DNA from: a virus
Reading direction: 5' to 3' (one strand)
Virus genome (UHGV): UHGV-0114783
DNA: 55,303 nucleotides
Of this stretch, positions 19,944 through 39,801 are shown piece after piece (the first letter of the stretch is position 1; every line of letters begins with the position of its first letter). The notes under the pieces were generated by a model. That model was not told where the DNA came from. It did not search any database and was given only the letters and a program-made list of their open reading frames with translations. The position numbers and the translations under genes were made by a program.

Positions 19944-20417
19944 ATGGCTGCATTAAAACCTGATGTGAAAGCCTTCATCATTCAGTCGCTTGCGTGCTAT
20001 GACACGCCATCGCAGGTGGTCGAGGCTGTCCAAAAAGAATTCGGGATCAAGATCACCCGCCAGCAGGCTGAATCTCACGACCCCACGAAGGCCAGCGGTA
20101 AGACGCTCGCCAAAAAGTGGATCGAGATGTTCCACGCGACGCGCGAACGGTTCCTGACCGAAACCAGCGACATTCCGATAGCGAACAAATCCTATCGCCT
20201 CCGCGTGCTTGACCGCATGGCAACCAAAACCGAGGGGATGAAAAACTTCTCCCTGACGGCGCAGCTTATCGAACAGGCCGCGAAAGAGGTTGGCGACGCT
20301 TACACCAATAAGCTGAAGGTTGAGAGCACTGGCAAGGATGGCGGCCCGATCAAGACCGAGACGACCAACCTCACCGCAGATCAGGCCGCAGAGATTTACC
20401 GCAAGATGATGGGGTGA
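19944..20417 (+). CDS. Terminase small subunit (putative)
   Basis: 157-aa ORF directly upstream of and overlapping the large terminase gene. Confidence 0.6.
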
Positions 20418-24147: not shown

Positions 24148-25380
24148 ATGAAATATTTTTTCAATACCCGGCTGGGGGAAACCCGCTATCAGCTGGCTGA
24201 CGGCTCGCTGTTGTGTAAAGACGTGCCGATAGGTCGAACGGGTAAGCAGCTCTACGGCGCTGCCGATCTGCCAAACCTCAAACCCGACAAGCTCGGTGAG
24301 ATAGTCGTAACGCGTTCTCCTGAGCAGGTATTCCATCCGGCCACGCTCGCCTCATTCGAAGGGATGAGCATCACGATCCTGCATCCTGAAGATGAAAACG
24401 GGAATGTGCGGCTGGTAAATCCCGAGAACTGGAAAGAGCTTGCTGTCGGGCATCTTCAGAATGTGCGGCGCGGGACTGGTGACCAGTCTGATTTGATGCT
24501 GGCAGACCTTATCGTCAAAGACGAAAGCGCCATTCAGCTTATCGAAGATGGTCTGCGCGAAGTGTCGTGCGGCTATGACGCGGAGTACGAGCAGACCGAG
24601 CCAGGTAAAGCCGAGCAGGTCGATATTACCGGAAACCATGTGGCTCTTGTCCCTAAAGGCAGAGCCGGAAATCGTTGTGCAATTGGAGACAGAGACACAA
24701 TGGCAAATCAAAAGAAAAGCTGGTGGACCCGCATGCGCACGGCCATCAAAACGGGTGACGCTGACACCATGAACGAACTGCTGGACTCTGCGCCAGCGGC
24801 GGTAACGGGTGACGAAGGGGATCTGCCGAGCGGCGTTAACCTCAACATTAACCTTTCACCGCAGCAACCATTGCCGGACAAAAAGCCGGAAATGGGCGGA
24901 GATCCAACCGGCGACGGCGAGGACGATATCAAAACCTTGCTCAAAGCCCTGCTGGCTAAGCTCGAAGGAACTGCGACGGGCGATAACGACAATAAGCCTG
25001 ACGAAAAAGACAAAAAAGATCCGACCGGCGACGGCGAGGACGACGAAGAGGAAACCACGATTACCGGTGACTCTGCCTATCGTGCCGAGGTTATCGTCCC
25101 GGGTATCGATCTGAGCCGTAAGGTGAAACCGACCGCGTTCAAACGTGATGTGCTGGCTGCCGCTGACAAAACACTGGTTCGCCAGGTTGTCGGTGATGCG
25201 GATATCCGCAAATTGCCCAAGCAATCGGTAGATATGGCGTTTAACGCCGTGTCAGAGATTGCCAAAGGGCGAAACACCCGCAGCACCACGGGCGATGCAC
25301 AACGTCCAAATATGGGCATGACCAGCATCGCTTCCCTGAACAAACAAAACGCCGACTTCTGGTCTAACCGCAAAGGATAA
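24148..25380 (+). CDS. Head scaffold/protease-like protein (DUF2213-like) with acidic repeats
   Basis: 410-aa ORF with two DPTGDGEDD repeats, position after head morphogenesis gene. Confidence 0.55.
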   Translation: MKYFFNTRLGETRYQLADGSLLCKDVPIGRTGKQLYGAADLPNLKPDKLGEIVVTRSPEQVFHPATLASFEGMSITILHPEDENGNVRLVNPENWKELAVGHLQNVRRGTGDQSDLMLADLIVKDESAIQLIEDGLREVSCGYDAEYEQTEPGKAEQVDITGNHVALVPKGRAGNRCAIGDRDTMANQKKSWWTRMRTAIKTGDADTMNELLDSAPAAVTGDEGDLPSGVNLNINLSPQQPLPDKKPEMGGDPTGDGEDDIKTLLKALLAKLEGTATGDNDNKPDEKDKKDPTGDGEDDEEETTITGDSAYRAEVIVPGIDLSRKVKPTAFKRDVLAAADKTLVRQVVGDADIRKLPKQSVDMAFNAVSEIAKGRNTRSTTGDAQRPNMGMTSIASLNKQNADFWSNRKG

Positions 25381-25389
25381 TCCAATGAC

Positions 25390-25409
25390 TGCATATCTGT
25401 ACCTTATGC
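25390..25409. repeat. Left flanking repeat TGCATatCTGTACCttATGC (candidate att site of nested element)
   Basis: Matches 38309..38328 at 16 of 20 positions with identical CTGTACC core. Confidence 0.4.
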
Positions 25410-25594
25410 AACTAATATCTATTAATCAGTGCGTTATCGTTCGGAATCATACGGCGTTACTGGCCTGAACCATAAAAATGACACTCCGAACATGTGCGGA
25501 TTTATTCGCCGGATTTCGCTTTGATTCGGTACATGAGGGACTAGAAAGAGAATCATGCGCCGTTTGCATTACATGGTAGCCAGAGAGGTGTTGA

Positions 25595-26824
25595 ATGATT
25601 GTTAGGCCACTAACTAGCGTCGAAGTGAAAAGCGCGAAGGCACAGGGCAAGGATTTCAGTTTGCACGATGGTTTCGGTTTGTTGCTTTACATCACAAGCC
25701 GGGGCGGTAAGTCATGGCGTTTTCGGTATGTACACCCGGTAACGAAGAAGAGACAAACCTATACCATTGGAAGATACCCGGAGTTTACTTTGTCCGAAGC
25801 GAGGGAGGAACGTTCGAAACTGCGCCGTATGGTAGCGCGGGGGATAGATCCGAACGAAGTCAAAAAAGATACCAGGAATGAACAGCGTAAAATGTACGCG
25901 CAGTCATTTCAGGCCGTTGCCGATGAATGGCTAAAAATCAAGATTAAAGAAGGTGCGAGAAGCAACACGCTTGAATCGCACAATGTGACGTTGAAGCATC
26001 TTTCCACGATTTTTAGGCATACCACAGTACATAAAATAAACGCAGCCGATACTATTCAGGCTTTTAAACCTTTCAGGGAAAGGCCATCAACGCTTACGAA
26101 AATGGTTATTACCATCAACGCCATAATGGATTATGCGGTAAATATTGGGGTTATTGAGCACAACCCACTATCGAAAATTGGTAAAGCATTCCCGGCTGAA
26201 AAAAACGAACCAAGAGCGACTTTACAGAAAGAGCGGTTGCCAGAATTTTTAAGCGCATGGAACGAGTTGAGCTTATGGGAGCCATCAAAGCTGGCATTAT
26301 TATTTCAGATCATTACGATGGTCCGACCTTCGGAAGCTGGCGGCGCTCTCTGGAATGAGATTGATTTTGATAATTCAATCTGGCAAATCCCTGCAAGCCG
26401 GATGAAAGGAAAGCGCCCCCACGTAGTCCCATTATCGAGCCAGGCTATAAACGTGCTTAAAGAGGCCGAAAAGTGGAAGCGCTGCGATTATGTTTTCCCC
26501 TCATGGCGAAAAGAAAATAAGCCGATCTCACGATGTGCGACTCAGGCCGGAATACACAAAACGTCGTTTAAAGGAATGATTGTTCCTCATGGGTTCAGGG
26601 CGTTGGCATCTACAGTTTTAAATGACGAGGGGTTCAACCCTGATGTGATTGAGGCTGCACTCGCTCACAAAAGCGCCGATGCGATTCGAAATGTTTATAA
26701 CCGTAGCGACTATCTGGAAAAACGCCGGGTTTTAATGCAATGGTGGGGGGACTTTATCGAGGCCGCAGAGCGTGGAGAGATACTGGAGACCAGCGGCGAT
26801 AAGGGCTTAAGGCTGGTTGTGTAG
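25595..26824 (+). CDS. int: Tyrosine integrase (P4-type) of the nested element
   Basis: 409-aa ORF, ATG with GAGAGG upstream; N-terminal KDFSLHDGFGLLLYITSRGGKSWRFRY and C-terminal HGFRALAST / AHK....R.VYNR motifs. Confidence 0.85.
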   Translation: MIVRPLTSVEVKSAKAQGKDFSLHDGFGLLLYITSRGGKSWRFRYVHPVTKKRQTYTIGRYPEFTLSEAREERSKLRRMVARGIDPNEVKKDTRNEQRKMYAQSFQAVADEWLKIKIKEGARSNTLESHNVTLKHLSTIFRHTTVHKINAADTIQAFKPFRERPSTLTKMVITINAIMDYAVNIGVIEHNPLSKIGKAFPAEKNEPRATLQKERLPEFLSAWNELSLWEPSKLALLFQIITMVRPSEAGGALWNEIDFDNSIWQIPASRMKGKRPHVVPLSSQAINVLKEAEKWKRCDYVFPSWRKENKPISRCATQAGIHKTSFKGMIVPHGFRALASTVLNDEGFNPDVIEAALAHKSADAIRNVYNRSDYLEKRRVLMQWWGDFIEAAERGEILETSGDKGLRLVV

Positions 26825-26966
26825 GGCATATCAATTTTTGGATAATTATGATTTCAAACGGGAATAGCTGGCTTTAAGCCAGCTTTTTTTATGCCCAAAG
26901 CTAACCGGAATGCGTTTTTTTTATTCAAATCATATATAATCATATCGAATATATACGGAGGTTTTT

Positions 26967-27179
26967 ATGTCTATAAGTGGCGGTGATATTCTGCTAAAAG
27001 GTGAAGTGAAAGCGCGTTTACGTTATCGCTCAGACTCGTCATTCTACGAGTTTCTAAAAGACGAGAAAAACGGCTTTCCAATGCCTTTTAAAGTCGGTGG
27101 GCGTAACTGCTGGTATGAAGATGAAGTAGATGCCTGGATAAGTAAACAAAGCGAGAAGCGCGGGATCTGCACATCATGA
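26967..27179 (+). CDS. AlpA-like small regulator/excisionase (putative)
   Basis: 70-aa ORF directly after the integrase gene. Confidence 0.55.
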   Translation: MSISGGDILLKGEVKARLRYRSDSSFYEFLKDEKNGFPMPFKVGGRNCWYEDEVDAWISKQSEKRGICTS

Positions 27180-27318
27180 ATGTTTGCAGATTTGGGAAAG
27201 AGGGCTTGCTAACGGCTATCCGGGCAAGCCCTTTTTATTGTCAGTGGTGGGGATCTGTAACTTACGGCCACCAGCGCCGGTAATCACCTTCTGGCTGGTG
27301 GCTTCACTGGCATGGCTA

Positions 27319-27678
27319 TTACGCTGCCGCATCATCTGAATTGAATTCAATGTGAATTCGGTCATAAGGCAGCACGATTTTTTCGCCGTCTTTGTCCAGA
27401 ACGCCGCCGTTAAGCAGTGACTGAACATCGTTATAAACACCGCGAAAATCACGGTTAACAATGCGTGATAGTTCGCGGATTGATACGGCTTGCGCTCCCT
27501 CCATCGCTTTGATGATCTGCCAGCGGTTAGGGGCAAGCATAGTTTTAGCCAGTTGTTCTACAGTGGGAAAAATCAGTTCGGAACCGATGAAATCCCCGTT
27601 CATTGCGCGGGAGGCGTCGGACATTGTCACCCGGAAAGCATCATCAACGGTCATTACTCTGACGGTCAGCACTCGCAT
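27319..27678 (-). CDS. HTH-containing protein of unknown function (second gene of a two-gene module)
   Basis: 119-aa ORF with HTH-like segment VSIRELSRIVNRDFRGVYNDVQSLL; 4-bp gap from the upstream gene. Confidence 0.45.
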   Translation of the reverse strand: MRVLTVRVMTVDDAFRVTMSDASRAMNGDFIGSELIFPTVEQLAKTMLAPNRWQIIKAMEGAQAVSIRELSRIVNRDFRGVYNDVQSLLNGGVLDKDGEKIVLPYDRIHIEFNSDDAAA

Positions 27679-27682
27679 GGTA

Positions 27683-27964
27683 TTACCTCCTCAACAGGTT
27701 TATGTCAGCCTGAAAGCTGGCGATCAGGTTCTCAATGGTGGTGAATGTCACCGGATATTCCCGATCATGGATGTGTTTGTGGTCGCCTTTGCCACGTTCG
27801 TTGTCGTAACGCATGACGCACTCGCCATCTACGATGTAGGCCAGACTGTACTTGTATTGGTGCTGGCTACCTAAAATTGCCGGGTCTACTTCCAGAATGC
27901 GGATCGAGGCGAAAGCGTTATCAGCTATCTGGATACGGCGGTTCATCAACTCAACAGCGGGCAT
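27683..27964 (-). CDS. Small protein of unknown function (first gene of a two-gene module)
   Basis: 93-aa ORF tightly coupled to the downstream HTH gene. Confidence 0.45.
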   Translation of the reverse strand: MPAVELMNRRIQIADNAFASIRILEVDPAILGSQHQYKYSLAYIVDGECVMRYDNERGKGDHKHIHDREYPVTFTTIENLIASFQADINLLRR

Positions 27965-28204
27965 TGGCTTATCTCCTTGTTGATGTAAATAATAACATCA
28001 CAAACGAATGATGTAAATGATTACATCATTGCGGGTAAGTTACCGATGGCATGAACGGTTCGCTGCTGGTGGCTCTCGATCTCCTGAAATCTCAGGAGAT
28101 TGCCGGGCATGATTTTAATCGGCGGACTTTTCCGCCGATTGAATACGGGCAGTTCGCTCCCTGCGTGTCGGTTTTGTTTGTGGATTATTCGCGTTTCGTT
28201 TCTG

Positions 28205-28310
28205 GTGAATTCGCATTCGCAATTTTTCCGAGAAGCCTTATCCGGCCTGCTTTGAGCAGTGTTCTCTCTTTGCGAATTCGCAATTCCATTCGCACTTTGA
28301 TTCGCAGTTT
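28205..28310. promoter_or_regulatory. Cluster of ATTCGCA heptamer repeats including the palindrome TGCGAATTCGCA
   Basis: Six or more copies of ATTCGCA within about 100 bp of non-coding-looking sequence. Confidence 0.4.
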
Positions 28311-28436
28311 TCAAATGTTCCCATTCCGGGGGCATGGACGATTCGACAGGTGTTACAAACGTTGGTGGTGAAATATCTTCTTGCGCTGGCGGGCAGGGTG
28401 TGGTTATGATTATTTCGCACCTCACAAAACGGGTGC

Positions 28437-28655
28437 CGGGTTTAGCAGCCTGAACGTTCTAGCGGGTAGCCGCTGATTTCCGTATAGCGGTATTTTTACG
28501 CCCGAAAACCAACCACACCCCCGATTTATGGCGGGGCGTGGTGGGGAGGCTTAACGCCTGCTGGTTTCCTAGAACGCCAGTCTGCTAACCCCGCCACGTC
28601 TCGCCACCCATGTTTAGCAGCATCTGGCGAGACTCCTTCAATATGTTCTAGGAGC
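28437..28655 (+). ncRNA. Candidate structured regulatory RNA region with mutually complementary repeats (P4 immunity-like arrangement)
   Basis: TTTAGCAGC...CGTTCTAG at 28441..28462 and again at 28613..28650, complementary block CTAGAACG...TCTGCTAA at 28569..28589, GC hairpin near 28512..28545. Confidence 0.35.
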
Positions 28656-28751
28656 CGCTAAAAATGGCTAGATCCGCACATCCAAAATTCACCTGGCGCT
28701 TTCTCGCGCTTAATCGCCACGACAAAAAAGCCAAACCTTGCCGTTTGTCCG

Positions 28752-29723
28752 TTGAGGCTGCGACCGAACGCGAAGCCCGCCGCATCCTTGCGCCGCACTT
28801 TATTTTGTCTCTGGCCGCACGTCTGCCAGTGCCGGAGGTGCGCCGTGTTTAACCTCCAGACTCTGACAGCCAAAGCCCGCGAGCTGCGCGGCAATGTCGT
28901 TAAAGCGGCGAGCACAAAGGGCAGTCGCACCATGACCCCTGTTTATGACCGCGACGAGCAGCGCAAGCTACGTGAGCGCATCCAGCAGACGCAACCGGAT
29001 TGGGTATTGCTCTGGTGGGATATTGCGACCGTAACCGGCTGGCGTACCAGCGATGTTTGCAACCTGCGCTATTCCTGCGTCAATTGGGAAACGGGGCAGG
29101 CGACAATTATCGTTGCCAAGCAAACCAAAGCCGCCGAAGCGCGGGCAACCCGCAAAGGTATTGAAATTGTGCGCCAGCAGCGCAAGGACGCCGCACGGCT
29201 CGCCGCTGACCATATCGCCTACATGAAGTGGGATAGTATCGGCTGTGATGAACTGGCCGCCGATATGAACGACGAAGAACAGGCGATTGTGTTCGGGCTG
29301 GTGGCAAAGGCTGACGTCAAGCACGACACCAAACAGTTACCGCCCGGCATCATCAAGCGGCTGCGTGACCGGCAGGATCGGAATCTGGTAGAGGACGACC
29401 TGGTATTTTCCCGCTCTCAAATCGAAAGTAACCGTTGTCAACGTCTGGAAGGTAGCGTGACCCGCCAAACCATCTGGCGCAAACTTCATGGCGTCATGGC
29501 GTGGTTTACCCGCTTCATTAACGCTAAATTGCGCCTGAGCGCCTATTCAAGCCGAAAAATAGCAGCCTTTAATCTTATGTCCGCAGGTGGCGAACAGGGC
29601 TTATTGGTGGCGTCTGAAATGCTGGGCCATAGCAACCCGGCGATAACTCGCACTTACCTTCAATTAGGCAGCAAAGCCGCCGCTATCCAGTCCCGTTTAG
29701 CAATGGAGGCCGGAAATGCGTAA
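28752..29723 (+). CDS. Divergent tyrosine-recombinase-like protein (start uncertain)
   Basis: ORF track 323 aa; C-terminal region with TGWRTSD ... LGHSNPAITRTYLQL resembling recombinase boxes; likely real start at an internal GTG/ATG (around 28846 to 28932). Confidence 0.45.
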   Translation: MRLRPNAKPAASLRRTLFCLWPHVCQCRRCAVFNLQTLTAKARELRGNVVKAASTKGSRTMTPVYDRDEQRKLRERIQQTQPDWVLLWWDIATVTGWRTSDVCNLRYSCVNWETGQATIIVAKQTKAAEARATRKGIEIVRQQRKDAARLAADHIAYMKWDSIGCDELAADMNDEEQAIVFGLVAKADVKHDTKQLPPGIIKRLRDRQDRNLVEDDLVFSRSQIESNRCQRLEGSVTRQTIWRKLHGVMAWFTRFINAKLRLSAYSSRKIAAFNLMSAGGEQGLLVASEMLGHSNPAITRTYLQLGSKAAAIQSRLAMEAGNA

Positions 29724-29895
29724 AACCTTCCAGATTGACGGATACGCTGTTAACAGGCGCGGGCATACGGTAGGGATTCACTACACCATGACCAGCACTA
29801 GCCCAGAAACAGCTAAATCTACTGCGCAACTACTGGCGCAGAAGGGCAGCTATAAACACGTTCGCATTACCCGCATTCGTGAGGTGGCAGCATGA
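29716..29895 (+). CDS. Small hypothetical protein (59 aa)
   Basis: Hand-translated ORF with GGAGG ahead of the ATG; overlaps neighbours by a few bases; not in ORF track. Confidence 0.4.
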   Translation: MRKTFQIDGYAVNRRGHTVGIHYTMTSTSPETAKSTAQLLAQKGSYKHVRITRIREVAA

Positions 29896-30155
29896 ACATA
29901 AATACCATCTACCGCCACCCGGCAGAGCTGGAAGCCGAAGCGATGCTATCTCGTAAAGAAGCATACCCGGATGATTTTACGCTGGCAGACCGAACAGCAG
30001 AACGCATGACCCGCGCCCGCAATGGGCTGGCTCACGTTATGACCGATTTAGCCACTCAACTAGACGATGAACAGGCCGCTATCGTGTATTGCTGGCTGAG
30101 TAAAGTCCTGACGATTATCGATATAGCCAGAATTGATGCGGAGGCCAGCGCATGA
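29892..30155 (+). CDS. Hypothetical protein
   Basis: 87-aa ORF, translationally coupled (ATGA overlap). Confidence 0.45.
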   Translation: MNINTIYRHPAELEAEAMLSRKEAYPDDFTLADRTAERMTRARNGLAHVMTDLATQLDDEQAAIVYCWLSKVLTIIDIARIDAEASA

Positions 30156-30373
30156 GCCAGTTACAACTGATTGATGCCACCTGTCAGATTGAACAGGCAC
30201 AGGCTGTTTTATCCATGTGGCTGGAGAGCACCACCAAAGACACTAGCCCCGACCTTCCGCGTCTTATCGGTTCAATCCTCACTTTGCTGCATGGCGTCCC
30301 GGAGGCAATGGAAGAAGCCGAAAGCAAGCTGGCTGACTATGTGATGCGTGAATATCGGGAGGGCAAGTCATGA
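30152..30373 (+). CDS. Hypothetical protein
   Basis: 73-aa ORF, coupled. Confidence 0.45.
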   Translation: MSQLQLIDATCQIEQAQAVLSMWLESTTKDTSPDLPRLIGSILTLLHGVPEAMEEAESKLADYVMREYREGKS

Positions 30374-30960
30374 GCTATCACGCAGAGGCAACGCCGCACG
30401 GCGTCAATATCATGACCAGCAATGATGCCGGGATATATGAGCATGTAGCCATTATAACCTATGAGAGCGCTGTAAGCCGTCTGGATGCGGGAGAGTACGA
30501 CGATACGCCAGATATCGGCTACGCCATTCATTTTGCCGTTGCTGATGGCGGGGCGCGTGGCTGGTTCGACTTTACTGCGCAGCATAACGTCACTATGTGG
30601 CGCTGGCTGATTGCTGCGACGTTCGTTTCTGAGATGAAGCGCGAAAACGGCACAACCTCCGTCACGGAGGCTGACGGCACAACATCGCAGGTGGCGATTT
30701 ACTCCAATGGTAATGCGGGCATGGTGATTTACCCGTTTGCTGAACGGCTGGCGATGGCGAACAACATCGAGGGCGCAATGATTGAGCGATACGGCGTCGA
30801 ACAGGGTACGGAAAACGCCATTGTGTTCTACCGCGCCATGCTGGACACGGAGCGCGGCGAGTTGACCCCGTTCGGGCGTCAGACGCTGGCAGAGCTACAC
30901 GATGGATTCATTGCCGATCTGAATGAAAACGGCTGGCCTGAAATGCCGCTGGCGCACTGA
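30370..30960 (+). CDS. Hypothetical protein
   Basis: 196-aa ORF immediately upstream of the primase gene. Confidence 0.45.
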   Translation: MSYHAEATPHGVNIMTSNDAGIYEHVAIITYESAVSRLDAGEYDDTPDIGYAIHFAVADGGARGWFDFTAQHNVTMWRWLIAATFVSEMKRENGTTSVTEADGTTSQVAIYSNGNAGMVIYPFAERLAMANNIEGAMIERYGVEQGTENAIVFYRAMLDTERGELTPFGRQTLAELHDGFIADLNENGWPEMPLAH

Positions 30961-30973
30961 GGGAGGTACACGA

Positions 30974-33754
30974 ATGCGTAATATCGACCTTATCCGCGAA
31001 GTGACCACCGCCGCAGCAGGGCGCTGGCCTTATGTGCTGGCTGGATTGTCTATCGACGTGCCTGATTCATCGCGCCGCCATGCCCCCTGCCCTGCATGTG
31101 GCGGTACGGATCGCTTCCGGTTCGATGATAACGGGCGCGGCAGCTTTATCTGCAACCAGTGCGGCGCGGGCGACGGGCTGGATTTAATCAAGCGGGTTAA
31201 CAACTGCGACACCACGGAGGCGGCGCACCTTGCCGCTGATGTGCTGGGTATTGATTACCGGGCAGCAGAAACCGACCCGACAGCAGCCAGCCAGAGGCGG
31301 GAGCAAATGGAGTCTGAGCGCCAGCAGCGCGAGCAGGAGCGCCAGAAACAGGCAGCAGAGGACGCAGAGCAGCGAAGGGCTACGTTTGCCAGCCTGTATG
31401 CCGGAATGCGCCAGAGCGTCACACGGGGCGAATCTGAATATCTGATGGCTAAGGGGCTGGACGGGTTCACTTTCCCGCTATTGCCTGATGGTTCAGTCCT
31501 GCTTGAGCTGGTGGATGAGTCCGGCGCAGTGGCAGCCGCACAGACCATCACCCCACAGGGAGAAAAGCGCCTTCTGACAGGTTCAGCAAAGCGCGGGGCA
31601 TATCACGCCGTAAACGCGCCAGAATCGCCGCAGAGCGTTTTAATTGCCGAGGGGCTGGCAACGGCGCTATCCGTTCACCAGATGCACCCCGAAGCGCTGG
31701 CGGTGGTCGCAGTGGACGCCGGAAACCTGCTTTCGGTCGCACAGCTTATGCGCCAAAAGCACCCTAACGCGCGGATCATCATTGCCGCAGACAATGACCA
31801 GAGCGCCGAAAGTGACAGAAGAGGAGGAGTGAAAATTAACACAGGTAAGGAGTGCGCGGAGAAAGCCGCAAAAGCCGTTGCTGGCTGGGCCTCGCTGCCA
31901 CCCGTGGACTACAAAGCGGACTGGAACGATTACCACCAACAATATGGACTGGAAGCCGCTACAGCAGCATTTAACGCCTCAATGTACCAACCGGAGGGTA
32001 AGAAAGTGGGTGTGACACTGGCAGCAATCGACGGCGGCAAGAAAAGCCCTGGTATCGACGACGACCTTAAACCGCGAGTAGAGAGCCGTTCGGATGGCAT
32101 TCACTGGATCACCCCGAAAGTGGACAAAGACACAGGGGAAATTATCAATACCGAGGCGTGGCTATGCTCTCCGCTGGAGATTGCTGGTGCAGGGAGTGAT
32201 AACGCCAGACAGCGCTTTCTGATCCTGCGTTGGGACGTTCCCGGCAATCGGGGGCAAGTTACCCGTGCGCTTCCTTGGGAGGACATTGGCGACCGCGAGG
32301 GATGGCGAACTCTGAAAAACGGCGGTGTCAGTGTGACGACCAAACCATCGTTGCGGGCAATTCTGGCCGACTGGCTACAGCGAACCGGTAGCGGCAAGGA
32401 GTGGCAGATCAGCCACACCACAGGCTGGCACAGCGGGGCGTACATCATGCCGGATGGTGATGTTATTGGTGATCCAGAGATACCGCTTTTATTCAGTGGC
32501 CGCAGTGCGGCGGCTGGTGGCTATACCGTCAGTGGAACGCCGGAAAGCTGGCGTGATTCGGTGGCGCGTCTTGCGTTGGGCAACCCGTCAATGATGCTGG
32601 GTGTTGCTGCTGCGCTGTCTGCACCGCTGATCGGGCTTGTTGGCGCTGACGGTTTCGGTGTTCACCTTTTCGAACAGTCCAGCGCAGGGAAGACGACGAC
32701 CGCCAACATTGCCAGCAGCTTATACGGTGAACCGGATGCCCTGCGCCTCACCTGGTACGGTACTGCGCTGGGTATCGCCAACGAAGCGGAAGCGCATAAC
32801 GACAGCCTGTTACCGCTGGACGAAGTGGGGCAGGGCAGTAGCGCCAAAGACGTTGCCACGTCGGCTTACACGCTGTTTAACGGTGCCGGAAAGTTACAGG
32901 GGGCGAAGGAGGGCGGCAACCGTGAGTTAAAGCGCTGGCGTACCGTGGCGATCAGTACCGGGGAAATGGACATTGAAACGTTTCTTTCTGCTGGTGGGCT
33001 GAAAGTTAAGGCCGGGCAACTGGTGCGACTGCTTAATTTACCGATGGAGAAATCAGTAACGCACCATGAGTACCAGAACGGGAAGCAACACGCCGACGCA
33101 CTCAAAGAGGCTTACCAGACGAACCACGGAGCCGCAGGCCGTGAATGGATTAAATGGCTTGCAGGCCACCAGCAGGAGGCAAAACAAGCTGTCAGAGCGG
33201 CGCAAGAGCGCTGGCGCAGTCTTATCCCCGCTGATTATGGCGAACAGGTTCATCGTGTAGGCGAGCGGTTCGCCATTCTGGAGGCGGCGCTGGTGCTTGG
33301 GATGCCTGTCACTGGCTGGGGGGAGCAGGAAAGCCGGGACGCCATCCAGCATGGCTTTAACGCCTGGGTGAAAGAGTTTGGCACGGGGAACCGTGAGCAT
33401 AAGCAGATCATCGAGCAGGCAGAGGCGTTTCTTAATGCATACGGACTGAGCCGATTTGCACCTTACCCTTATGACCCGGCTGACATGCCGATTCGGGATT
33501 TGGCCGGGTACCGTCAGAAAGGGGCGCATGATGCTGATCCGATAGTGTTCTACACGTTCCCGGCAGCATTCGAAGGTGAGATTGCGAAGGGATTCAACGC
33601 GAAACAGTTTGCCCGTGTGCTGGCCGGGGCTGGGGTGCTGAAACCGCCAGCCAGCGGAAGGGGGTATCAGCGTAAATCCCCGCGAATTGATGGACGCCAG
33701 ATAAACGTTTATGTGCTCCAGCTACGACCCGACGAGATAGAGGGTGAAGAATAA
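30974..33754 (+). CDS. Primase-helicase (P4 alpha-like: zinc ribbon, TOPRIM, Walker-A NTPase)
   Basis: ORF track 30923..33754 trimmed to the ATG at 30974; CPACGG...CNQCG zinc ribbon, TOPRIM-like IAEGLATA...IIIAADND, Walker A GADGFGVHLFEQSSAGKTT. Confidence 0.85.
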   Translation: MRNIDLIREVTTAAAGRWPYVLAGLSIDVPDSSRRHAPCPACGGTDRFRFDDNGRGSFICNQCGAGDGLDLIKRVNNCDTTEAAHLAADVLGIDYRAAETDPTAASQRREQMESERQQREQERQKQAAEDAEQRRATFASLYAGMRQSVTRGESEYLMAKGLDGFTFPLLPDGSVLLELVDESGAVAAAQTITPQGEKRLLTGSAKRGAYHAVNAPESPQSVLIAEGLATALSVHQMHPEALAVVAVDAGNLLSVAQLMRQKHPNARIIIAADNDQSAESDRRGGVKINTGKECAEKAAKAVAGWASLPPVDYKADWNDYHQQYGLEAATAAFNASMYQPEGKKVGVTLAAIDGGKKSPGIDDDLKPRVESRSDGIHWITPKVDKDTGEIINTEAWLCSPLEIAGAGSDNARQRFLILRWDVPGNRGQVTRALPWEDIGDREGWRTLKNGGVSVTTKPSLRAILADWLQRTGSGKEWQISHTTGWHSGAYIMPDGDVIGDPEIPLLFSGRSAAAGGYTVSGTPESWRDSVARLALGNPSMMLGVAAALSAPLIGLVGADGFGVHLFEQSSAGKTTTANIASSLYGEPDALRLTWYGTALGIANEAEAHNDSLLPLDEVGQGSSAKDVATSAYTLFNGAGKLQGAKEGGNRELKRWRTVAISTGEMDIETFLSAGGLKVKAGQLVRLLNLPMEKSVTHHEYQNGKQHADALKEAYQTNHGAAGREWIKWLAGHQQEAKQAVRAAQERWRSLIPADYGEQVHRVGERFAILEAALVLGMPVTGWGEQESRDAIQHGFNAWVKEFGTGNREHKQIIEQAEAFLNAYGLSRFAPYPYDPADMPIRDLAGYRQKGAHDADPIVFYTFPAAFEGEIAKGFNAKQFARVLAGAGVLKPPASGRGYQRKSPRIDGRQINVYVLQLRPDEIEGEE

Positions 33755-33778
33755 AAACACACATACGAGATGTTTTTT

Positions 33779-34073
33779 TGTTGGTTCAGTTGGTTCAGTA
33801 ACTATTTAATTAATATAAGTGTGTGTATTTAATGCATTTACATGCTTGTAAGTGAACCAACACCGAACCAACAAACGCCCATTTTGAACCAACAAATGCC
33901 GCTATTGAACCAACGCCCTTTTCTGGCTGGCCTGTAAATCTTTCCCACTGAACCAACACGAAAATAGCGTTTGTTGGTTCAAAACGGGGCTTTGTTGGTT
34001 CACTCCTAAAGAAATAATCCTTATAAAACAACAATCTTTACAAATTGAACCAACTGAACCAACTGAACCAACA
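33779..34073. repeat. Iteron array, about a dozen GAACCAAC/GTTGGTTC octamers in both orientations (candidate origin of the nested element)
   Basis: Direct reading: TTGGTTCAG x2, GAACCAAC x5, GTTGGTTC x2, then GAACCAACTGAACCAACTGAACCAAC, immediately downstream of the primase gene. Confidence 0.7.
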
Positions 34074-34355
34074 TGTTTTTGCTTATCTATAGAGTTTTTT
34101 CGGAGAGTAATTACTAATTTGGAGGGGCGTCGCCTAAGCGAAAGTATGCGGAAACGGCAACTTTGCGGAGCGGAAAAGAAAAAGCCCGCGCTGGAGAGGC
34201 GAGGGCTTTTGTTAACCATGTTTATGCAATCACACAACGGTGGATCACCGTCATAGTATCACGTCGATTTATCATTTCAATATGCGCAATGATATTTACT
34301 AACATTGCAATTTATGCAATGATCAGAATTTAAACAACGCAAAAGGTTATGAACA

Positions 34356-34919
34356 ATGAAACAGATAACCAATGTTAATCTGGAAAGTGATAACTCTGGT
34401 GGTACCGTCGAGGTGACTTACTCCGATGATACGTTCGAAAGGCTGACCTGCTCGCTTCCTGTGGCTCTCGTCATTGCGAATCTTGCAACGACGCTTAAGC
34501 AGGAACGTGCAACACGCATTGCAACTGGCGACCGCCTGCGTCGGATGTACACCCGCGATAGTGACATGATTACTCGCAGTGGCAGCGGCGCTTCTACGAC
34601 CTCCACCGCGCCAACGTCAATGGACGCTGAATTTATGCGCCTGGTACGCGCGGTAGCACCAAAGTATGACAACGCCCTTCCTGATACCGATCCTCGCCTT
34701 GTTGCGCTCGACGTGCTGCGTTACGCACCCGCTGAGGCATTCAGTGCGGTACATCCGACCCCGCTATCAGAGATTCAGCTTGATCAGGCTATCGACGTTC
34801 TGGAGCAGGTTGGCGACTACATGCGAGTTAACAACGTTTCACCGAAGATTCTCTCCACAGGCGACGCCATTCGCAGCATTAACACCGATAATGCCAGTTT
34901 CTGGCATCGCACGAAGTAA
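34356..34919 (+). CDS. Hypothetical protein
   Basis: 187-aa ORF after the iteron region. Confidence 0.45.
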   Translation: MKQITNVNLESDNSGGTVEVTYSDDTFERLTCSLPVALVIANLATTLKQERATRIATGDRLRRMYTRDSDMITRSGSGASTTSTAPTSMDAEFMRLVRAVAPKYDNALPDTDPRLVALDVLRYAPAEAFSAVHPTPLSEIQLDQAIDVLEQVGDYMRVNNVSPKILSTGDAIRSINTDNASFWHRTK

Positions 34920-34925
34920 GGAGCA

Positions 34926-35120
34926 ATGAGCATGGCTATTTATGACCCGAAATTAGCAGCAGGAAACCCGCAAAGCGCCGGGCGTAAACTCTTTGGCCGT
35001 GAGCATGCCGAGCAGTTACGTATGCGTAACAACTTCAACAACGAATGCCGCAATCTGGAAAAAGTCAACGAAGCGAATGCAAAGTTCTGGAGTGAACAGG
35101 ATGAAAAAGCCAAACGTTAA
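34926..35120 (+). CDS. Hypothetical protein
   Basis: 64-aa ORF. Confidence 0.35.
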   Translation: MSMAIYDPKLAAGNPQSAGRKLFGREHAEQLRMRNNFNNECRNLEKVNEANAKFWSEQDEKAKR

Positions 35121-35268
35121 ACCGGTATTACTTTCTGGCGACCAGTTCGCCGCAATCTGCAAGATCCAGGAGCGCGAACGCCAGCGCTCCGATATTGGCG
35201 TTGCGCCTTCTGTCCATCAAATTGCCCGTGGGCTGGTGGCGAAAGCGCTGGCATCAATTCAGGAATAA
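35101..35268 (+). CDS. Hypothetical protein (55 aa)
   Basis: ORF track 34993..35268 trimmed to the ATG at 35101. Confidence 0.3.
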   Translation: MKKPNVKPVLLSGDQFAAICKIQERERQRSDIGVAPSVHQIARGLVAKALASIQE

Positions 35269-35273
35269 CGACT

Positions 35274-36341
35274 ATGTCATATAACTGGATGCGCCATTTC
35301 GAGCTACAGCTCATCGATGAGAATGGCAAAGGAATTAGCCTTAGTGATTTCAAAGTTACCTTTGATATAGAGCGTAACGATAACAAATGGCCAGCTGTTG
35401 CGACGGTCAAGATCTACAACCTTTCACCAACTACTCAGAACCGTATTATGCAACGTGAGTTTGCCAAAATTGTGTTGATAGCGGGGTATGATGGTCGTGC
35501 GCAGGATGTAAGGGCAAGTGATGTGGGGATTGCACGTGAAATATCAGCAAGCGAAGTGGGCCAGGCTAACGGCGCAAACTACGGAGTCATTTTCAGCGGT
35601 GATATCCGCTTCACTGTGACCGGAAAAGATAACCCTGTCGATTCATGGGTACAGGTGCAGGCTTGTGACTCTGTGGAGGCGTTTACCAGCGCATTTATCA
35701 ACACCACTATCAGCAAAGGCTACACCACAGAAGATATTTATGTTGAGCTTATGAAAAGGCTGGAACCTTACGGCATTTCTCGCGGTATTGTTCCTGAATT
35801 CCCGGCAACGGTATTTCCTCGCGGTCGAGCCCTCTTTGGCTATGTCCATAACTATCTCGATGAAGTGGCCGCGCAGTGCAAAGCCACTTGGCAATTCAAC
35901 TATGGAAAAGTCGATATTGTTCCCAGAGACAAGGCCACTCATGAAGCTGTGGTTCTCAACGCTAATACCGGGCTTATCGGTATGCCTCAGCAGACCATCG
36001 GTGCGGGTGTGAATGTCAAATGCCTGATTAACTCACGGATTCACCTGAACGGGCTTATCCAACTGGATCAGGCTTCGGTATATCGTAGCGCCTTATCTGC
36101 GGATCAAATTGCCCAAGCTGGTGGGCCAATTTCGGTGGAAAGCCAAAACGGAAACCTTGTCACTACTGGATTAACGCAGAGTCCGGCGAGCATTGCTACC
36201 GATGGTATCTATAAGGTTCGGTATATCAGTTACACGGGCGACACGCGCGGTCAAGCGTGGTATATGGATCTGGCGTGTGAGGCTCGCGGGAATTCTGATT
36301 TATTTTCAAGTTCATTTATGAATAAGCAGAGTGAAGAATGA
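35274..36341 (+). CDS. Baseplate hub-like protein, diverged second copy
   Basis: 355-aa ORF colinear with 47449..48513 (shared WMRHFELQL, RFTVTGKDN, AVVLNANTGLIGMPQQT, YTGDTRGQAWYMDL blocks). Confidence 0.65.
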   Translation: MSYNWMRHFELQLIDENGKGISLSDFKVTFDIERNDNKWPAVATVKIYNLSPTTQNRIMQREFAKIVLIAGYDGRAQDVRASDVGIAREISASEVGQANGANYGVIFSGDIRFTVTGKDNPVDSWVQVQACDSVEAFTSAFINTTISKGYTTEDIYVELMKRLEPYGISRGIVPEFPATVFPRGRALFGYVHNYLDEVAAQCKATWQFNYGKVDIVPRDKATHEAVVLNANTGLIGMPQQTIGAGVNVKCLINSRIHLNGLIQLDQASVYRSALSADQIAQAGGPISVESQNGNLVTTGLTQSPASIATDGIYKVRYISYTGDTRGQAWYMDLACEARGNSDLFSSSFMNKQSEE

Positions 36342-36682
36342 AGAAGATTATTTTACTGATTGGTTTATTGGGCGCATCTGGAAGTCATGCTGCGCAGGTT
36401 ATTACCATGCAGTGCGGAAACTTTCGCTTTGAGATGATAGAAAACTCGATGGCGAGAATTAATGGTGAGTATGTAACATCTCAGAAAATTACAGAGTTCG
36501 GACAGAACGGGGCAAAAGTAGAAATGACGCTTATGCCTGCCAGCGATGGGAATCTGTATGGGTTTGAATACATCCATCCTGACGGTAGCAAAAAGCGCTG
36601 GCTGAATGTTGAGCTTATCCGCACCAATATGAATCAGGCGCGGATCATTGGCTCGTTTGATTGTAAGCGCGTGAAGGGGTAA
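36338..36682 (+). CDS. Small secreted protein with conserved QCG.F and DCK...KG motifs (second copy)
   Basis: 114-aa ORF with signal-peptide-like N-terminus, same position between hub and spike genes as the phage copy. Confidence 0.5.
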   Translation: MKKIILLIGLLGASGSHAAQVITMQCGNFRFEMIENSMARINGEYVTSQKITEFGQNGAKVEMTLMPASDGNLYGFEYIHPDGSKKRWLNVELIRTNMNQARIIGSFDCKRVKG

Positions 36683-36690
36683 GGGGAATC

Positions 36691-37353
36691 ATGCCATTCA
36701 TTCGACCCGCAAATGAGCAGGATGTAACACAGCTTGTTCAGGACAATGCTAAAGCATCTGTAACCAATGCGTTACCTGGCATTATTCGTTCGTTCGATCC
36801 CGAAACTGTCACCTGCGATGTTGATATAGCCATTACGGCAAGAATGACGAAGGCTGGCACAATGGGTGAAGATTTCCAGTATGAGTCCGTCCGCTATCCG
36901 ATTCTTAACGATTTGCCTGTGGTTTTTCCGCGCGGGGGCGGAGTTACGCTTACTTTCCCGGTTAAAGATGGTGATGAATGCCTCATCGTATTCTCTTCGC
37001 GTTCGATTGATTTCTGGTGGCAGAACGGCGGTGTGCAGGAGCGAGCTGATGGGCGTATTTTAGATCTGTCTGATGCGTTCGTTATTCCTGGCCCCCAATC
37101 ACAGGTAAAGAAGATATCCAATATCAGTACCAACGCTGCGCAGCTGCGTACAGATGATGGAGCGGCATTTGTAGAGGTGTCCGCTGGTGGAGCCATTACT
37201 ATTACCAGCTCTCAAATCACCCTTAACGGGCCCGTGCAGGTAAACGGAACGATCACTTCCACTGGCGACCAAACGGCCAACGGTATCAGCCAGATTAACC
37301 ATACCCACGGCGGCGTACAATCAGGCGGCAGCAACACAGGAAAACCACAATGA
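36691..37353 (+). CDS. Baseplate central spike protein (gpV-like), diverged second copy
   Basis: 220-aa ORF colinear with 49246..49986 (shared FPRGGG.TLTFPVK.GDECL, DLSDAF, TDDGAAFVEV, HGGVQ.GG..TG.PQ end). Confidence 0.65.
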   Translation: MPFIRPANEQDVTQLVQDNAKASVTNALPGIIRSFDPETVTCDVDIAITARMTKAGTMGEDFQYESVRYPILNDLPVVFPRGGGVTLTFPVKDGDECLIVFSSRSIDFWWQNGGVQERADGRILDLSDAFVIPGPQSQVKKISNISTNAAQLRTDDGAAFVEVSAGGAITITSSQITLNGPVQVNGTITSTGDQTANGISQINHTHGGVQSGGSNTGKPQ

Positions 37354-37529
37354 GCAATATTGAAAAACTGAAACCAGAAGAAAGCGGAGCCAGCCAGAAT
37401 GGAAAGGTTCGTACCTGGCTGGATGATATCAACGGGCAGCCGGAACCAGATGGTATTGGCAGCTTCGGTGAGAGTGCGATCTGCGAAGAATCACGCACAG
37501 CGGAAACCATGCGAAATAACGTAGGGTGA
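37350..37529 (+). CDS. Small hypothetical protein (59 aa)
   Basis: Hand-translated ORF starting at the ATGA overlap with the preceding gene; not in ORF track. Confidence 0.3.
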   Translation: MSNIEKLKPEESGASQNGKVRTWLDDINGQPEPDGIGSFGESAICEESRTAETMRNNVG

Positions 37530-37619
37530 CGGTCAGATGACGTGATCTGTAACTTTAAGTAGCGGTGCAGGGGCAGAACTCAGCACGCTACTTTTATTTT
37601 CTTTGTCAAAAGGTGAACA

Positions 37620-38093: not shown

Positions 38094-38308
38094 CCACCAG
38101 CGCCGTGACACGTCACACGCAAAAATAGCACCGCCCATTAATGGGCTGGTGGCACAGCTTGCATATTGAAATTCCCTGTAAATCTTACAGATCTGGTATT
38201 GAGTAACTTACCCCATTCAGCGCCACACATCACAGAGCAGCCTATGGACTACACACAAAATCAGGCTGAAAATAAATCCTTATATTTCAGTTGATTAAAT
38301 AATAGCCT

Positions 38309-38328
38309 TGCATTCCTGTACCGGATGC
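38309..38328. repeat. Right flanking repeat TGCATtcCTGTACCggATGC (candidate att site of nested element)
   Basis: Matches 25390..25409; the ATG within it is the start codon of the next head gene. Confidence 0.4.
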
Positions 38329-38807: not shown

Positions 38808-38818
38808 GGAACAGACAA

Positions 38819-39760: not shown

Positions 39761-39801
39761 TAACCAGAACGGCCCCGAAAGGGGCCAGAAGGGAACTGAA
39801 A

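What the first reader, a model, noticed from the sequence alone, without database searches (positions are those of the whole stretch)
28205..28310. Cluster of ATTCGCA heptamers including a perfect 12-bp palindrome
Six or more copies of ATTCGCA within about 100 bp, including TGCGAATTCGCA, lie between the two-gene module and the candidate RNA region. This looks like a binding-site array for a regulator, possibly the adjacent HTH protein or an activator of the insert.
Basis: seen in the sequence. Interest (0 to 1): 0.45.

Follow-up and report, generated by a model that had tools for sequence, protein, structure and literature searches.

The report
Iteron-like heptamer array in a phage satellite
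The ATTCGCA cluster is real and conserved: it is the core of a small, portable, non-coding DNA cassette in a phage satellite that sits inside its helper phage. It looks like a docking array for a DNA-binding protein, laid out like the replication origin of satellite P4. It is not the operator of the neighbouring toxin-antitoxin regulator, and its binding protein is still unknown.

Summary
Observation confirmed. Six exact ATTCGCA copies lie in 98 bp, at 28209, 28215, 28276, 28288 and 28300 (+) and 28271 (-). They include the perfect palindrome TTGCGAATTCGCAA (28270-28283). Simulated sequences never gave more than 3 copies in 110 bp.

The array is the best-conserved part of a ~273-bp non-coding cassette (28053-28325). 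The cassette belongs to a ~12.9-kb helper-embedded PICI-type satellite (25410-38328) inserted in an Omnitron-like Citrobacter phage. It lies between alpA (plus a TumE/TumA toxin-antitoxin insert) and the promoter of a C4/isrK-type immunity RNA-icd-primase operon.

The cassette is accessory and portable. It occurs after alpA, or after the replication origin (Citrobacter youngae type), or is absent. Its presence does not follow the integrase, AlpA, TumA, primase or TerS variant.

Its layout is 2 direct copies, a 49-bp spacer, 1 inverted copy, then 3 direct copies. This matches the six type-1 iterons of the P4 origin and the origins of sister satellites in topology, orientation and map position. 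However, the spacer is not AT-rich, and the satellite's own origin (GAACCAAC iterons, 33777-34072) is elsewhere.

Best reading: an iteron-type protein-binding array, an origin-like auxiliary control site. The binder is unidentified. The proposed link to the adjacent HTH protein is not supported.

The parts
28053..28325 (+). Portable non-coding cassette that contains the heptamer array
   Evidence: Sharp homology borders in alignments of 9-10 variants from different contexts. One-nt indels, no third-position bias, 7 synonymous-only against 29 amino-acid-changing variable codons in the open frame. No Pfam or PHROG hit, and only 8 near-identical 'proteins' among 5.8 billion.
28209..28221 (+). Heptamers b and c: ATTCGCATTCGCA, two direct copies in 6-bp register (left cluster)
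   Evidence: Copy c is invariant; copy b varies (ATTTGCA or GTTCGCA in some relatives).
28187..28193 (+). Weak copy a (ATTCGCG), the end of the first unit of a 22-bp tandem repeat (28171-28192 / 28193-28214)
   Evidence: Not conserved in several relatives.
28222..28270 (.). 49-bp spacer between the two clusters; the most variable part of the cassette; 53% A+T
   Evidence: The equivalent spacers are 83% A+T in P4 and in L147-type origins.
28270..28283 (.). Perfect 14-bp palindrome TTGCGAATTCGCAA, formed by inverted copy d (28271-28277, minus strand) fused to direct copy e (28276-28282)
   Evidence: The 12-bp core TGCGAATTCGCA and the preceding T are invariant in all relatives. The last base (28283) is A only in the window and E. 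coli EC2001 and G elsewhere, so the other relatives have a 12-bp perfect palindrome.
28288..28306 (+). Heptamers f (28288-28294) and g (28300-28306), in 12-bp register with e
   Evidence: One variant each in L128 (ATTCGCG) and L140 (ATTTCGCA).
28079..28143 (+). Two conserved hairpins in the 5' half of the cassette (28079-28100 and 28114-28143)
   Evidence: I13, I3. Every variable stem position keeps pairing as G-U/G-T on the + strand only, including one double change G-C to U-G. Plus-strand fold z=-4.2 against -2.2 for the minus strand. The second hairpin recurs next to the origin in L134-L136.
28318..28332 (+). Small 3' hairpin (TTCCC/GGGGG) with variable loop that closes the cassette
28381..28417 (+). 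Candidate early/immunity promoter: TTGCGC-18 nt-TATGAT, start near 28417, 75 bp downstream of the last heptamer
   Evidence: Read from the sequence. The isrK model match starts at 28417. Homology to some other E. coli elements starts at 28416, and to P1/P7 c4 at 28436.
28524..28611 (+). C4-type antisense immunity RNA, followed by icd-like gene 28664-28852
   Evidence: Rfam RF01695, 76 bits. Complementary target sequences at 28433-28452 and 28608-28621. NF033153 match for icd.
27981..28028 (.). Two 20-bp palindromes TGATGTAAAT(A/G)AT(A/T)ACATCA over the TumE/TumA promoter: the likely operators of the neighbouring HTH antitoxin
   Evidence: They travel with the toxin-antitoxin module in L130.
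26967..27239 (+). alpA (26967-27179) and its intrinsic terminator (27202-27239). In E. coli EC2001 the cassette follows this terminator directly.
33777..34072 (.). The satellite's own origin: about 14 GAACCAAC/GTTGGTTC iterons flanking AT-rich stretches, just 3' of the DUF927 primase-helicase gene (30923-33754)
   Evidence: Present in all relatives with this primase, with or without the cassette.

Best explanation
The heptamers are DNA-level binding sites for an oligomerising, sequence-specific DNA-binding protein. They form the conserved core of a ~273-bp accessory, non-coding cassette of a helper-embedded PICI-type satellite.

Their arrangement is two direct copies, a 49-bp spacer, one inverted copy fused to the first of three direct copies at 12-bp spacing. 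This has the same 2 / 1-inverted / 3 topology, the same orientation relative to the early operon, and the same map position next to alpA/vis as two known or inferred origins. One is the set of six type-1 iterons of the satellite P4 origin. The other is the P4-type origin of sister satellites.

I therefore read it as an iteron-type, origin-like ('crr-like') auxiliary site. Cooperative binding to the two clusters would loop or wrap the spacer. That would modulate replication initiation or copy control, and/or transcription from the early promoter 75 bp downstream.

Shown: the array is real; it is conserved; it is non-coding; it is portable; it matches the P4 topology; it is independent of the toxin-antitoxin module. 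Inferred: that a protein binds it, that the protein is of the initiator type, and what the binding does. The binder is not identified. The array lacks an AT-rich unwinding region, so it is probably not itself a firing origin.
For: Clustering is far above chance. Heptamer positions are variable at 3/39 against 74/234 for the rest of the cassette, p=0.0017. The DNA is non-coding.

The P4 record annotates its origin immediately upstream of vis, the alpA homologue. Read in the early-operon direction it is [2 direct]-35 bp-[1 inverted]-13 bp-[3 direct]. Sister satellites with about 96-97% identical integrase-like protein carry GTGTTCATA arrays of exactly this layout. They lie right after the alpA terminator in the L147 type, which has an alpha-like primase with a Pox_D5 C-terminus. 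They lie right after the replication gene in the L170 type.

The ATTCGCA cassette shows the same two alternative positions, always in the same orientation. It is after alpA in the window, EC2001, L124, L127, L128, L131 and others. It is after the origin in L134 and Citrobacter youngae L122.

Elsewhere in the window, arrays of at least 5 hexamers per 120 bp occur only at the helper CI operators, inside the helper's O replication gene, at the satellite origin, and in one coding repeat. Conserved strand-specific hairpins sit beside the array, and one of them also sits beside the GAACCAAC origin of relatives.
Against: The spacer is 53% A+T, against 83% in P4 and L147-type origins. There is no sequence homology to the P4 origin.

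The element already has a complete origin with different iterons next to its primase. There is no second ATTCGCA cluster that could play the role of crr.

No encoded protein co-varies with the cassette. The primase alignment has no diagnostic column separating carriers from non-carriers. AlpA, the integrase and TerS are likewise uncorrelated. 73 of 80 related elements lack the cassette.

Site spacings of 6 and 12 bp differ from the 9-11 bp of P4-type iterons. All relatives are close (87-96% identical), so the comparative power is limited.
Confidence: 0.45

Rival explanations
1. It is a transcription-factor operator or upstream activating array for the early (immunity RNA-icd-primase) promoter. 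The binder would be the satellite's AlpA/Vis-type excisionase-regulator, or a helper or host factor. Binding would activate or repress the weak-(-35) promoter 75 bp downstream.
For: The array lies 111-208 bp upstream of the inferred start at 28417. In all three contexts it lies upstream of a rightward transcription unit. In EC2001 it directly follows alpA. AlpA activates downstream PICI genes in EcCICFT073 (PMC6092414). Excisionase-regulators such as 186 Apl bind arrays of direct repeats both at att and at promoters (PMC7498355 abstract). The int-proximal att arm carries GATT(T)CG-like triplets, including a 10-nt match CTTTGATTCG to the array. An unrelated low-GC PICI-like element (L111) has CATTCGCACACG repeats right after its HTH_17 gene.
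Against: The same heptamers occur with a 33%-identical AlpA and a 32%-identical integrase whose att arm carries other repeats (L134/L135). An identical AlpA occurs with no cassette (L130). The att-arm matches fall below the matrix threshold and are of marginal significance. No motif cluster exists in the helper genome, so a helper regulon is not evident. In gene-X elements the array is 1.3 kb from the early promoter. In L134 a terminator separates it from the next promoter.
Confidence: 0.25
2. The cassette acts as a structured plus-strand RNA, either a leader or a 3'-UTR element. The AUUCGCA repeats and their single complement UGCGAAU would form alternative pairings or a protein-binding RNA motif.
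For: Plus-strand fold z=-4.2 against -2.2 for the minus strand. All variable positions in the three obvious hairpins stay paired only on the plus strand (5 of 5, including one double change), and the same holds for further predicted stems. Orientation is constant relative to flanking transcription. In L134 the cassette is inserted upstream of the operon terminator. No sigma-70-like promoter was found between the cassette and the lipoprotein gene in L131, so that gene may be transcribed through the cassette.
Against: No Rfam family matches. No promoter is evident upstream in EC2001, where a strong alpA terminator precedes the cassette. A loop-less perfect palindrome and same-strand direct repeats are features of duplex-DNA recognition. 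The structural support concerns the 5' hairpins rather than the heptamer block, which never varies and so gives no covariation. G-T-tolerant hairpins would also fit single-stranded DNA signals.
Confidence: 0.12
3. It is a packaging (pac) recognition site for the satellite's own small terminase. This would resemble the P1 pac site, which as I recall it has hexamer repeats in two groups flanking the cut region.
For: The satellite encodes a DUF2280 TerS homologue (37620-38093) that is 65% identical to the helper TerS (19944-20417), less conserved in its N-terminal part than at its C-terminus. The array has 3+4 short repeats around a variable spacer. The P1 pac comparison is from my own memory and was not checked here.
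Against: The cassette and TerS are uncorrelated. L134 has the cassette but no such TerS. L130, L135 and L136 have 92-97% identical TerS but no cassette.
Confidence: 0.05
4. It is the operator of the adjacent TumA-type HTH antitoxin.
For: Physical proximity in the window.
Against: The toxin-antitoxin module is an insertion between the alpA terminator and the cassette. It has its own paired 20-bp palindromes over its promoter. The cassette occurs without the module, and the module without the cassette.
Confidence: 0.02
5. It is part of a real small protein gene (ORF 28051-28371, called 'hypothetical protein' by PGAP in EC2001), or a decaying relic with no present function.
For: An open frame spans the array in most variants, and PGAP annotates it.
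Against: Frame-breaking 1-nt indels occur between variants. Variable sites fall 16/30/21 across codon positions. There are 29 amino-acid-changing against 7 silent variable codons. The same DNA motif is read in different frames. The annotated EC2001 start lies inside the alpA terminator. There are no distant homologues. A relic would not keep the heptamers selectively.
Confidence: 0.05

Closest known systems
Origin of replication (ori) of satellite phage P4: six type-1 iterons TGTTCACC. Binding by the alpha primase-helicase is from my own knowledge and was not checked here.
   Same: Six short repeats arranged as 2 direct, spacer, 1 inverted, 3 direct. Same orientation relative to the early operon. 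Same neighbourhood, next to the alpA/vis gene and upstream of the immunity-RNA promoter. Non-coding.
   Different: Different repeat sequence and no sequence homology. The spacer is not AT-rich, 53% against 83%. Spacings are 6 and 12 bp rather than 10-11 bp. There is no alpha-type (Pox_D5) initiator in the element. There is no second region with the same repeats (crr). The cassette is dispensable in close relatives.
P4-type origin module of sister PICI-like satellites (GTGTTCATA/GGTATTCATA arrays; loci L147-L159 and L164-L219)
   Same: Same 2/1/3 layout. Found either right after the alpA terminator or right after the replication gene, the same two positions as the ATTCGCA cassette. The elements share a 86-97% identical integrase-like core gene.
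   Different: Those arrays go with elements that lack the DUF927-type helicase part of the primase and lack GAACCAAC iterons; where checked (L147) the primase is alpha-like. They are the only iteron set found in those elements. The ATTCGCA array co-exists with a separate GAACCAAC origin and follows no protein variant.
Helper-embedded PICIs (Tommasini, Mageeney and Williams 2023, PMC10111431)
   Same: The host element fits their description. It has integrase plus AlpA, a dynamic zone with C4/isrK immunity RNA, a replication zone, and a late zone with captured helper late genes. It is integrated in a helper late gene.
   Different: That paper describes a TGTATTGC doubled motif in attP and does not describe this cassette. 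The integration target here is the start of a cement/minor-capsid gene of an Omnitron-like myovirus.
Recombination-directionality-factor/regulator arrays (P4 Vis, P2 Cox, 186 Apl)
   Same: Arrays of short direct repeats bound cooperatively. Dual use at att and at promoters. The gene for such a protein (alpA) is adjacent.
   Different: No covariation with AlpA. The spacing is not one helical turn. A second array at att is not demonstrable.

Membership tests
P4-type replication origin (ori) | Six short iterons arranged 2 direct / 1 inverted / 3 direct | tested here: met
   Copies b,c / d / e,f,g, compared with the P4 annotation and sequence and with L147 and L170.
P4-type replication origin (ori) | AT-rich spacer (unwinding region) between the iteron groups | tested here: not met
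   Spacer 28222-28270 is 53% A+T, against 83% in P4 and L147. Local G+C is 0.48-0.52.
P4-type replication origin (ori) | Cognate alpha-type initiator (Pox_D5 C-terminal domain) encoded in the same element and co-varying with the iterons | tested here: not met
   The primase is a DUF927 type. There are no diagnostic residues between cassette carriers and non-carriers.
P4-type replication origin (ori) | A second cis region (crr) with the same iterons | tested here: not met
   No other ATTCGCA cluster in the window.
P4-type replication origin (ori) | Initiator binding and origin firing | not testable with these tools
   Needs footprinting, 2D gels or marker-frequency analysis.
PICI origin (two iteron sets flanking an AT-rich region, 3' of the replication gene; PMC6092414) | Position immediately 3' of the replication gene, with an AT-rich centre | tested here: not met
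   That description fits 33777-34072 (GAACCAAC iterons), not the heptamer cassette. Only in L134/L122 does the cassette lie after the replication gene, and there it is next to the GAACCAAC origin.
Toxin-antitoxin operator (antitoxin autoregulation) | Overlaps the toxin-antitoxin promoter and travels with the module | tested here: not met
   The promoter and palindromes are at 27981-28028. Cassette and module occur independently.
Excisionase/AlpA (Vis, Cox, Apl-type) binding array | Direct repeats about one helical turn apart; the same motif at att; covariation with the protein | tested here: inconclusive
   Spacing is 12 and 6 bp. There are weak GATT(T)CG triplets in the int-proximal arm. No covariation with AlpA.
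Terminase pac site | Co-occurrence with the cognate small terminase | tested here: not met
   Cassette without TerS in L134; TerS without cassette in L130, L135 and L136.
Known RNA family (Rfam 15) | Covariance-model match over the cassette | tested here: not met
   Only isrK, c4-a1b1 and C4 match, all downstream of 28404. Nothing credible matches in 28053-28325.
Protein-coding gene | Frame conservation, purifying selection, homologues | tested here: not met

The most novel reading that the evidence does not exclude
The cassette is an orphan, origin-like iteron array carried as cargo in the satellite's accessory hotspot, alongside a toxin-antitoxin pair and a lipoprotein gene. Its binder would be made by another replicon, either a rival satellite or a helper. 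Under this reading the array either titrates that initiator, acting as an incompatibility or anti-competitor decoy, or lets the satellite be replicated in trans. This would be a non-coding 'defence or hitch-hiking' module.
Probability: 0.1. Interest if true: 0.7.

Novelty: new variant of a known kind. Interest (0 to 1): 0.38.

Why it matters
Phage satellites are studied mostly through their proteins. Here a short non-coding module behaves like cargo: it is gained, lost and moved between two fixed slots. Yet it keeps six protein-site-like repeats under selection, in the exact layout of the P4 origin.

If a binder is found, it would show one of two things. Either this satellite family uses a second cis-acting control region (crr-like) with its own specificity, or satellites trade orphan iteron arrays. 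Both bear on how satellites control copy number, sense their helper and compete with each other.

If nothing binds it, the finding is just one more conserved repeat of unknown role in a narrowly distributed element.

Tried and rejected
(1) Coding sequence. Rejected on indels, the codon-position spectrum, the ratio of amino-acid-changing to silent variable codons, and the absence of homologues.

(2) TumA antitoxin operator. Rejected on co-occurrence and on the module having its own palindromes.

(3) The satellite's origin. The real one is the GAACCAAC array at 33777-34072.

(4) Sigma-70 promoter inside the cassette. None was found, and the conserved heptamer block has no TA dinucleotide (and reading).

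(5) Known RNA family. None matches.

(6) Relic of an Ash/Eta (Bro-network) gene. There is no similarity.

(7) Homology to the P4 origin region. None beyond chance.

(8) Helper regulon. There is no second motif cluster in the helper. The helper CI operators are ATCGC-N4-GCGAT, and the array inside the helper's O replication gene is built on CGGGAA.

(9) pac site of the satellite TerS. Presence is uncorrelated.

(10) Primase specificity determinant. No diagnostic residues.

(11) Wider relatives. An exact-pattern scan of 185,579 species genomes gave only Citrobacter youngae and Apirhabdus apintestini, plus an unrelated Pandoraea tandem repeat. The metagenome scan gave 6 close copies. Plasmids gave none. 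INPHARED phages gave none in the cassette part. An nhmmer profile on 80 related satellites found no diverged copies.

(12) The loose 3-heptamer pattern in IMG/VR mostly hit unrelated tandem repeats.

(13) Literature searches for the motif were uninformative. Pseudomonas AlpA is a different, Q-like protein with site GGGACG.

(14) IHF site, ArgR box, DnaA box, sigma-28/32/54 promoter elements and the RfaH ops site. I compared these by eye with consensus sequences recalled from memory. None was conserved across variants.

Full report
**Observation.** ATTCGCA occurs exactly at 28209, 28215, 28276, 28288 and 28300 on the plus strand and at 28271 on the minus strand. The overall count in the window (19 against 13.4 expected) is unremarkable. 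The clustering is not: in 300 first-order Markov simulations of the window the densest 110-bp stretch held 1-3 copies, never 6. The minus-strand copy overlaps a plus-strand copy to give a perfect 14-bp palindrome, TTGCGAATTCGCAA (28270-28283). The three last copies are in exact 12-bp register and the first two in 6-bp register. A weight matrix made from the sites finds no other cluster in the 55 kb.

**What the surrounding DNA is.** Citrobacter phage Omnitron (CP115737.1) matches the window at 97.8-99.4% identity on both sides of an empty site (window 24913-25409 and 38309-40832). The segment from about 25410 to 38328 is therefore a 12.9-kb insertion. It is flanked by a roughly 14-20-bp repeat that overlaps the start of a phage cement/minor-capsid gene. 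The insertion encodes, in order:
- a P4-type integrase (25595-26824) and AlpA (26967-27179) with an intrinsic terminator;
- a TumE/TumA toxin-antitoxin pair on the opposite strand (27319-27964);
- the heptamer region;
- a C4 antisense RNA (Rfam RF01695, 28524-28611) with its complementary targets and an isrK-like 5' leader, followed by icd;
- an integrase-like protein and a DUF927 primase-helicase (30923-33754);
- an iteron origin (GAACCAAC/GTTGGTTC, 33777-34072), a terminator and a 187-aa protein;
- baseplate hub and spike genes, and a DUF2280 small-terminase homologue that is 65% identical to the phage's own.

This is the 'helper-embedded PICI' organisation described by Tommasini, Mageeney and Williams (PMC10111431). 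The early promoter is most likely TTGCGC-18 nt-TATGAT, with a start near 28417. The isrK match begins there, and homology to some other E. coli elements begins at 28416 and to P1/P7 c4 at 28436. The heptamers thus lie 111-208 bp upstream of that start.

**The array belongs to a discrete, non-coding cassette.** I aligned the region from E. coli EC2001, Apirhabdus apintestini, Citrobacter youngae and IMG/VR and metagenome contigs. This shows a ~273-bp block (28053-28325) with sharp borders and differing flanks. PGAP calls a hypothetical protein across it in EC2001, and an ORF (28051-28371) is open in the window. Five observations argue against a gene:
- Variants differ by 1-nt indels.
- Variable sites fall 16/30/21 over the three codon positions.
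- In the indel-free part, 29 variable codons change the amino acid against 7 that are silent.
- The DNA motif is read in different frames in the two clusters.
- A search of 5.8 billion proteins found only 8 near-identical sequences.

Within the cassette the heptamer positions are selectively conserved: 3/39 variable against 74/234 elsewhere, p=0.0017. Five of the six copies have a single variable position among 33.

**The cassette is accessory and portable.** In EC2001 it follows the alpA terminator directly. In the window the TumE/TumA module is inserted between them. In other contigs a 356-aa lipoprotein gene is inserted between the cassette and the early promoter. In L130, with identical AlpA and the toxin-antitoxin module, the cassette is missing. 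In L134 and Citrobacter youngae the left arm is entirely different: integrase 32% and AlpA 33% identical, tRNA integration, and other arm repeats. There the cassette sits after the GAACCAAC origin, just before the operon terminator, in the same orientation. The closest relatives of L134 (L135, L136) lack it. Of 80 satellites sharing the integrase-like core gene, only 7 have it, and a profile search found no diverged copies. Presence does not follow AlpA, the integrase, TumA, TerS or the primase. The primase alignment has no column that separates carriers from non-carriers.

A protein-binding array is a good description. The neighbouring HTH protein, however, is a TumA antitoxin. Two 20-bp palindromes over the toxin-antitoxin promoter (27981-28028) are its likely operators, and they move with that module, not with the heptamers. 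AlpA, the natural 'activator of the insert' (PMC6092414), is not excluded but does not co-vary.

**The most informative comparison.** I scanned the 80 related satellites for dense hexamer arrays. A second array type turned up, GTGTTCATA/GGTATTCATA. It lies right after the alpA terminator in one group (L147 type) and right after the replication gene in another (L170 type). Its layout is two direct copies, a 36-bp AT-rich spacer, one inverted copy, then three direct copies. It is found in elements that lack the DUF927-type helicase part of the primase and lack GAACCAAC iterons. The one such primase I examined (L147) is alpha-like with a Pox_D5 C-terminus. The annotated P4 genome shows the same thing. 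Its origin lies immediately upstream of vis, the alpA homologue. Read in the direction of the early operon, its six type-1 iterons are two direct, a 35-bp AT-rich spacer, one inverted, three direct. A second iteron region (crr) follows the alpha gene. The ATTCGCA array has the same 2 / 1-inverted / 3 topology, the same orientation, and the same two alternative map positions. On this basis I read it as an iteron-type, origin-like site.

**Limits of that reading.** The spacer is 53% A+T against 83%. There is no sequence homology to the P4 origin. Site spacings are 6 and 12 bp rather than 9-11 bp. The satellite already has a full origin with other iterons. No second ATTCGCA cluster exists, and no cognate initiator can be named. 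It therefore fails several membership tests for 'a P4 origin' while still resembling one in how it would work. I judge it more likely to be an auxiliary binding region (crr-like, for copy control or promoter control) than a firing origin. I put 0.45 on this iteron-type reading and about 0.75 on the more general statement that the heptamers are duplex-DNA protein sites.

**Rival: an RNA element.** The 5' half of the cassette contains two strong hairpins (28079-28100 and 28114-28143), and the 3' end has a small one. Every variable stem position in these stays paired only on the plus strand, as G-U/G-T, including one G-C to U-G double change with a G-G intermediate. The plus strand folds better relative to shuffles (z=-4.2 against -2.2). 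This supports a strand-specific role for the hairpins, as RNA or as single-stranded DNA. It says nothing about the invariant heptamers. One hairpin recurs beside the GAACCAAC origin in relatives, which fits a replication-linked signal as well as an RNA one.

**Other rivals.** A pac site for the satellite TerS is unlikely because the two are uncorrelated. An AlpA or other transcription-factor operator remains the main alternative (0.25).

**Novelty and interest.** The host element type is known, and so are the C4/icd module and iteron origins. I did not find the cassette itself described in the papers searched. It is narrowly distributed and combines a P4-origin layout with features that exclude a standard origin. 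I rate it a new variant of a known kind, of moderate interest (0.38). It would rise if the binder proves to come from another replicon.

Noticed in passing
window 25410-38328 (att repeats about 25390-25409 and 38309-38328): The 'insert' is a 12.9-kb PICI-type satellite embedded in an Omnitron-like Citrobacter phage. It is integrated at the start codon of the phage cement/minor-capsid gene (38325-38807). That gene is left with an internal Met start, 7 codons shorter.
   Followed up: yes
window 37620-38093 versus 19944-20417: The satellite carries a DUF2280 small-terminase homologue 65% identical to the helper's TerS, less conserved in its N-terminal part than at its C-terminus. This is the classic pattern for redirecting packaging to the satellite.
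   Followed up: partly
window 35274-37353: The satellite's late zone encodes a baseplate hub (phrog_196) and a gpV-type spike with Apex motif. EC2001's copy carries a fuller baseplate set that duplicates the helper's. This suggests tail-tip or host-range remodelling by the satellite.
   Followed up: no
window 33777-34072: The satellite origin: about 14 GAACCAAC/GTTGGTTC iterons in several groups flanking AT-rich stretches, just 3' of the DUF927 primase gene. It is followed by a bidirectional-looking terminator at 34178-34212.
   Followed up: partly
whole window: There are 35 Chi sites (GCTGGTGG) against 1.9 expected, 27 of them on the plus strand. One lies inside the cassette (28065-28072), so that one is part of a genome-wide enrichment rather than a cassette feature.
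   Followed up: partly
window 8343-8403 and 9500-9558: Helper immunity region: three ATCGC-N4-GCGAT operators between the CI-like repressor (7618-8310, minus strand) and a cro-like gene. There are also six CGGGAA repeats inside the O-like replication gene, probably the helper origin.
   Followed up: no
window 34220-34325: Repeated (T/G)GCAAT(GAT) motifs in both orientations lie around the promoter of the 187-aa protein that opens the satellite's late zone. They are probably its own control sites. The protein has no Pfam, PHROG or NCBIfam match although PGAP calls it XRE-family.
   Followed up: no
window 28043-28062 versus 28326-28345 (and 28085-28109 versus 28369-28395): The cassette is bracketed by diverged direct repeats (CCGATGGCATGAACGGTTCG / CCGGGGGCATGGACGATTCG). 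A GATGGCA(T/C)-like motif also ends the toxin-antitoxin and lipoprotein modules in relatives. These may be recombination joints of the accessory hotspot.
   Followed up: partly
L135 8760-8795, L136 4235-4265, L134 8295-8325: The cassette's second hairpin (GGCGGACTTTTCCGCC) recurs in a different ~350-bp block immediately after the GAACCAAC origin in cassette-less relatives. It may be a strand-specific priming or processing signal.
   Followed up: partly
L111 2757-2880 (IMG/VR contig, 37% G+C): An unrelated PICI-like element has CATTCGCACACG x3, an AT-rich 65-bp stretch, then x2, directly downstream of an HTH_17 (excisionase-like) gene. It shares no protein homology with the window. This may be coincidence or convergent use of the same core.
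   Followed up: partly
L127 2551-3621, L130 2616-3686, L147 5299-6369: A 356-aa predicted lipoprotein (lipobox ...VSC/VAC) with no family match occupies the same hotspot between alpA and the early promoter in several relatives. It is a candidate superinfection-exclusion cargo.
   Followed up: no
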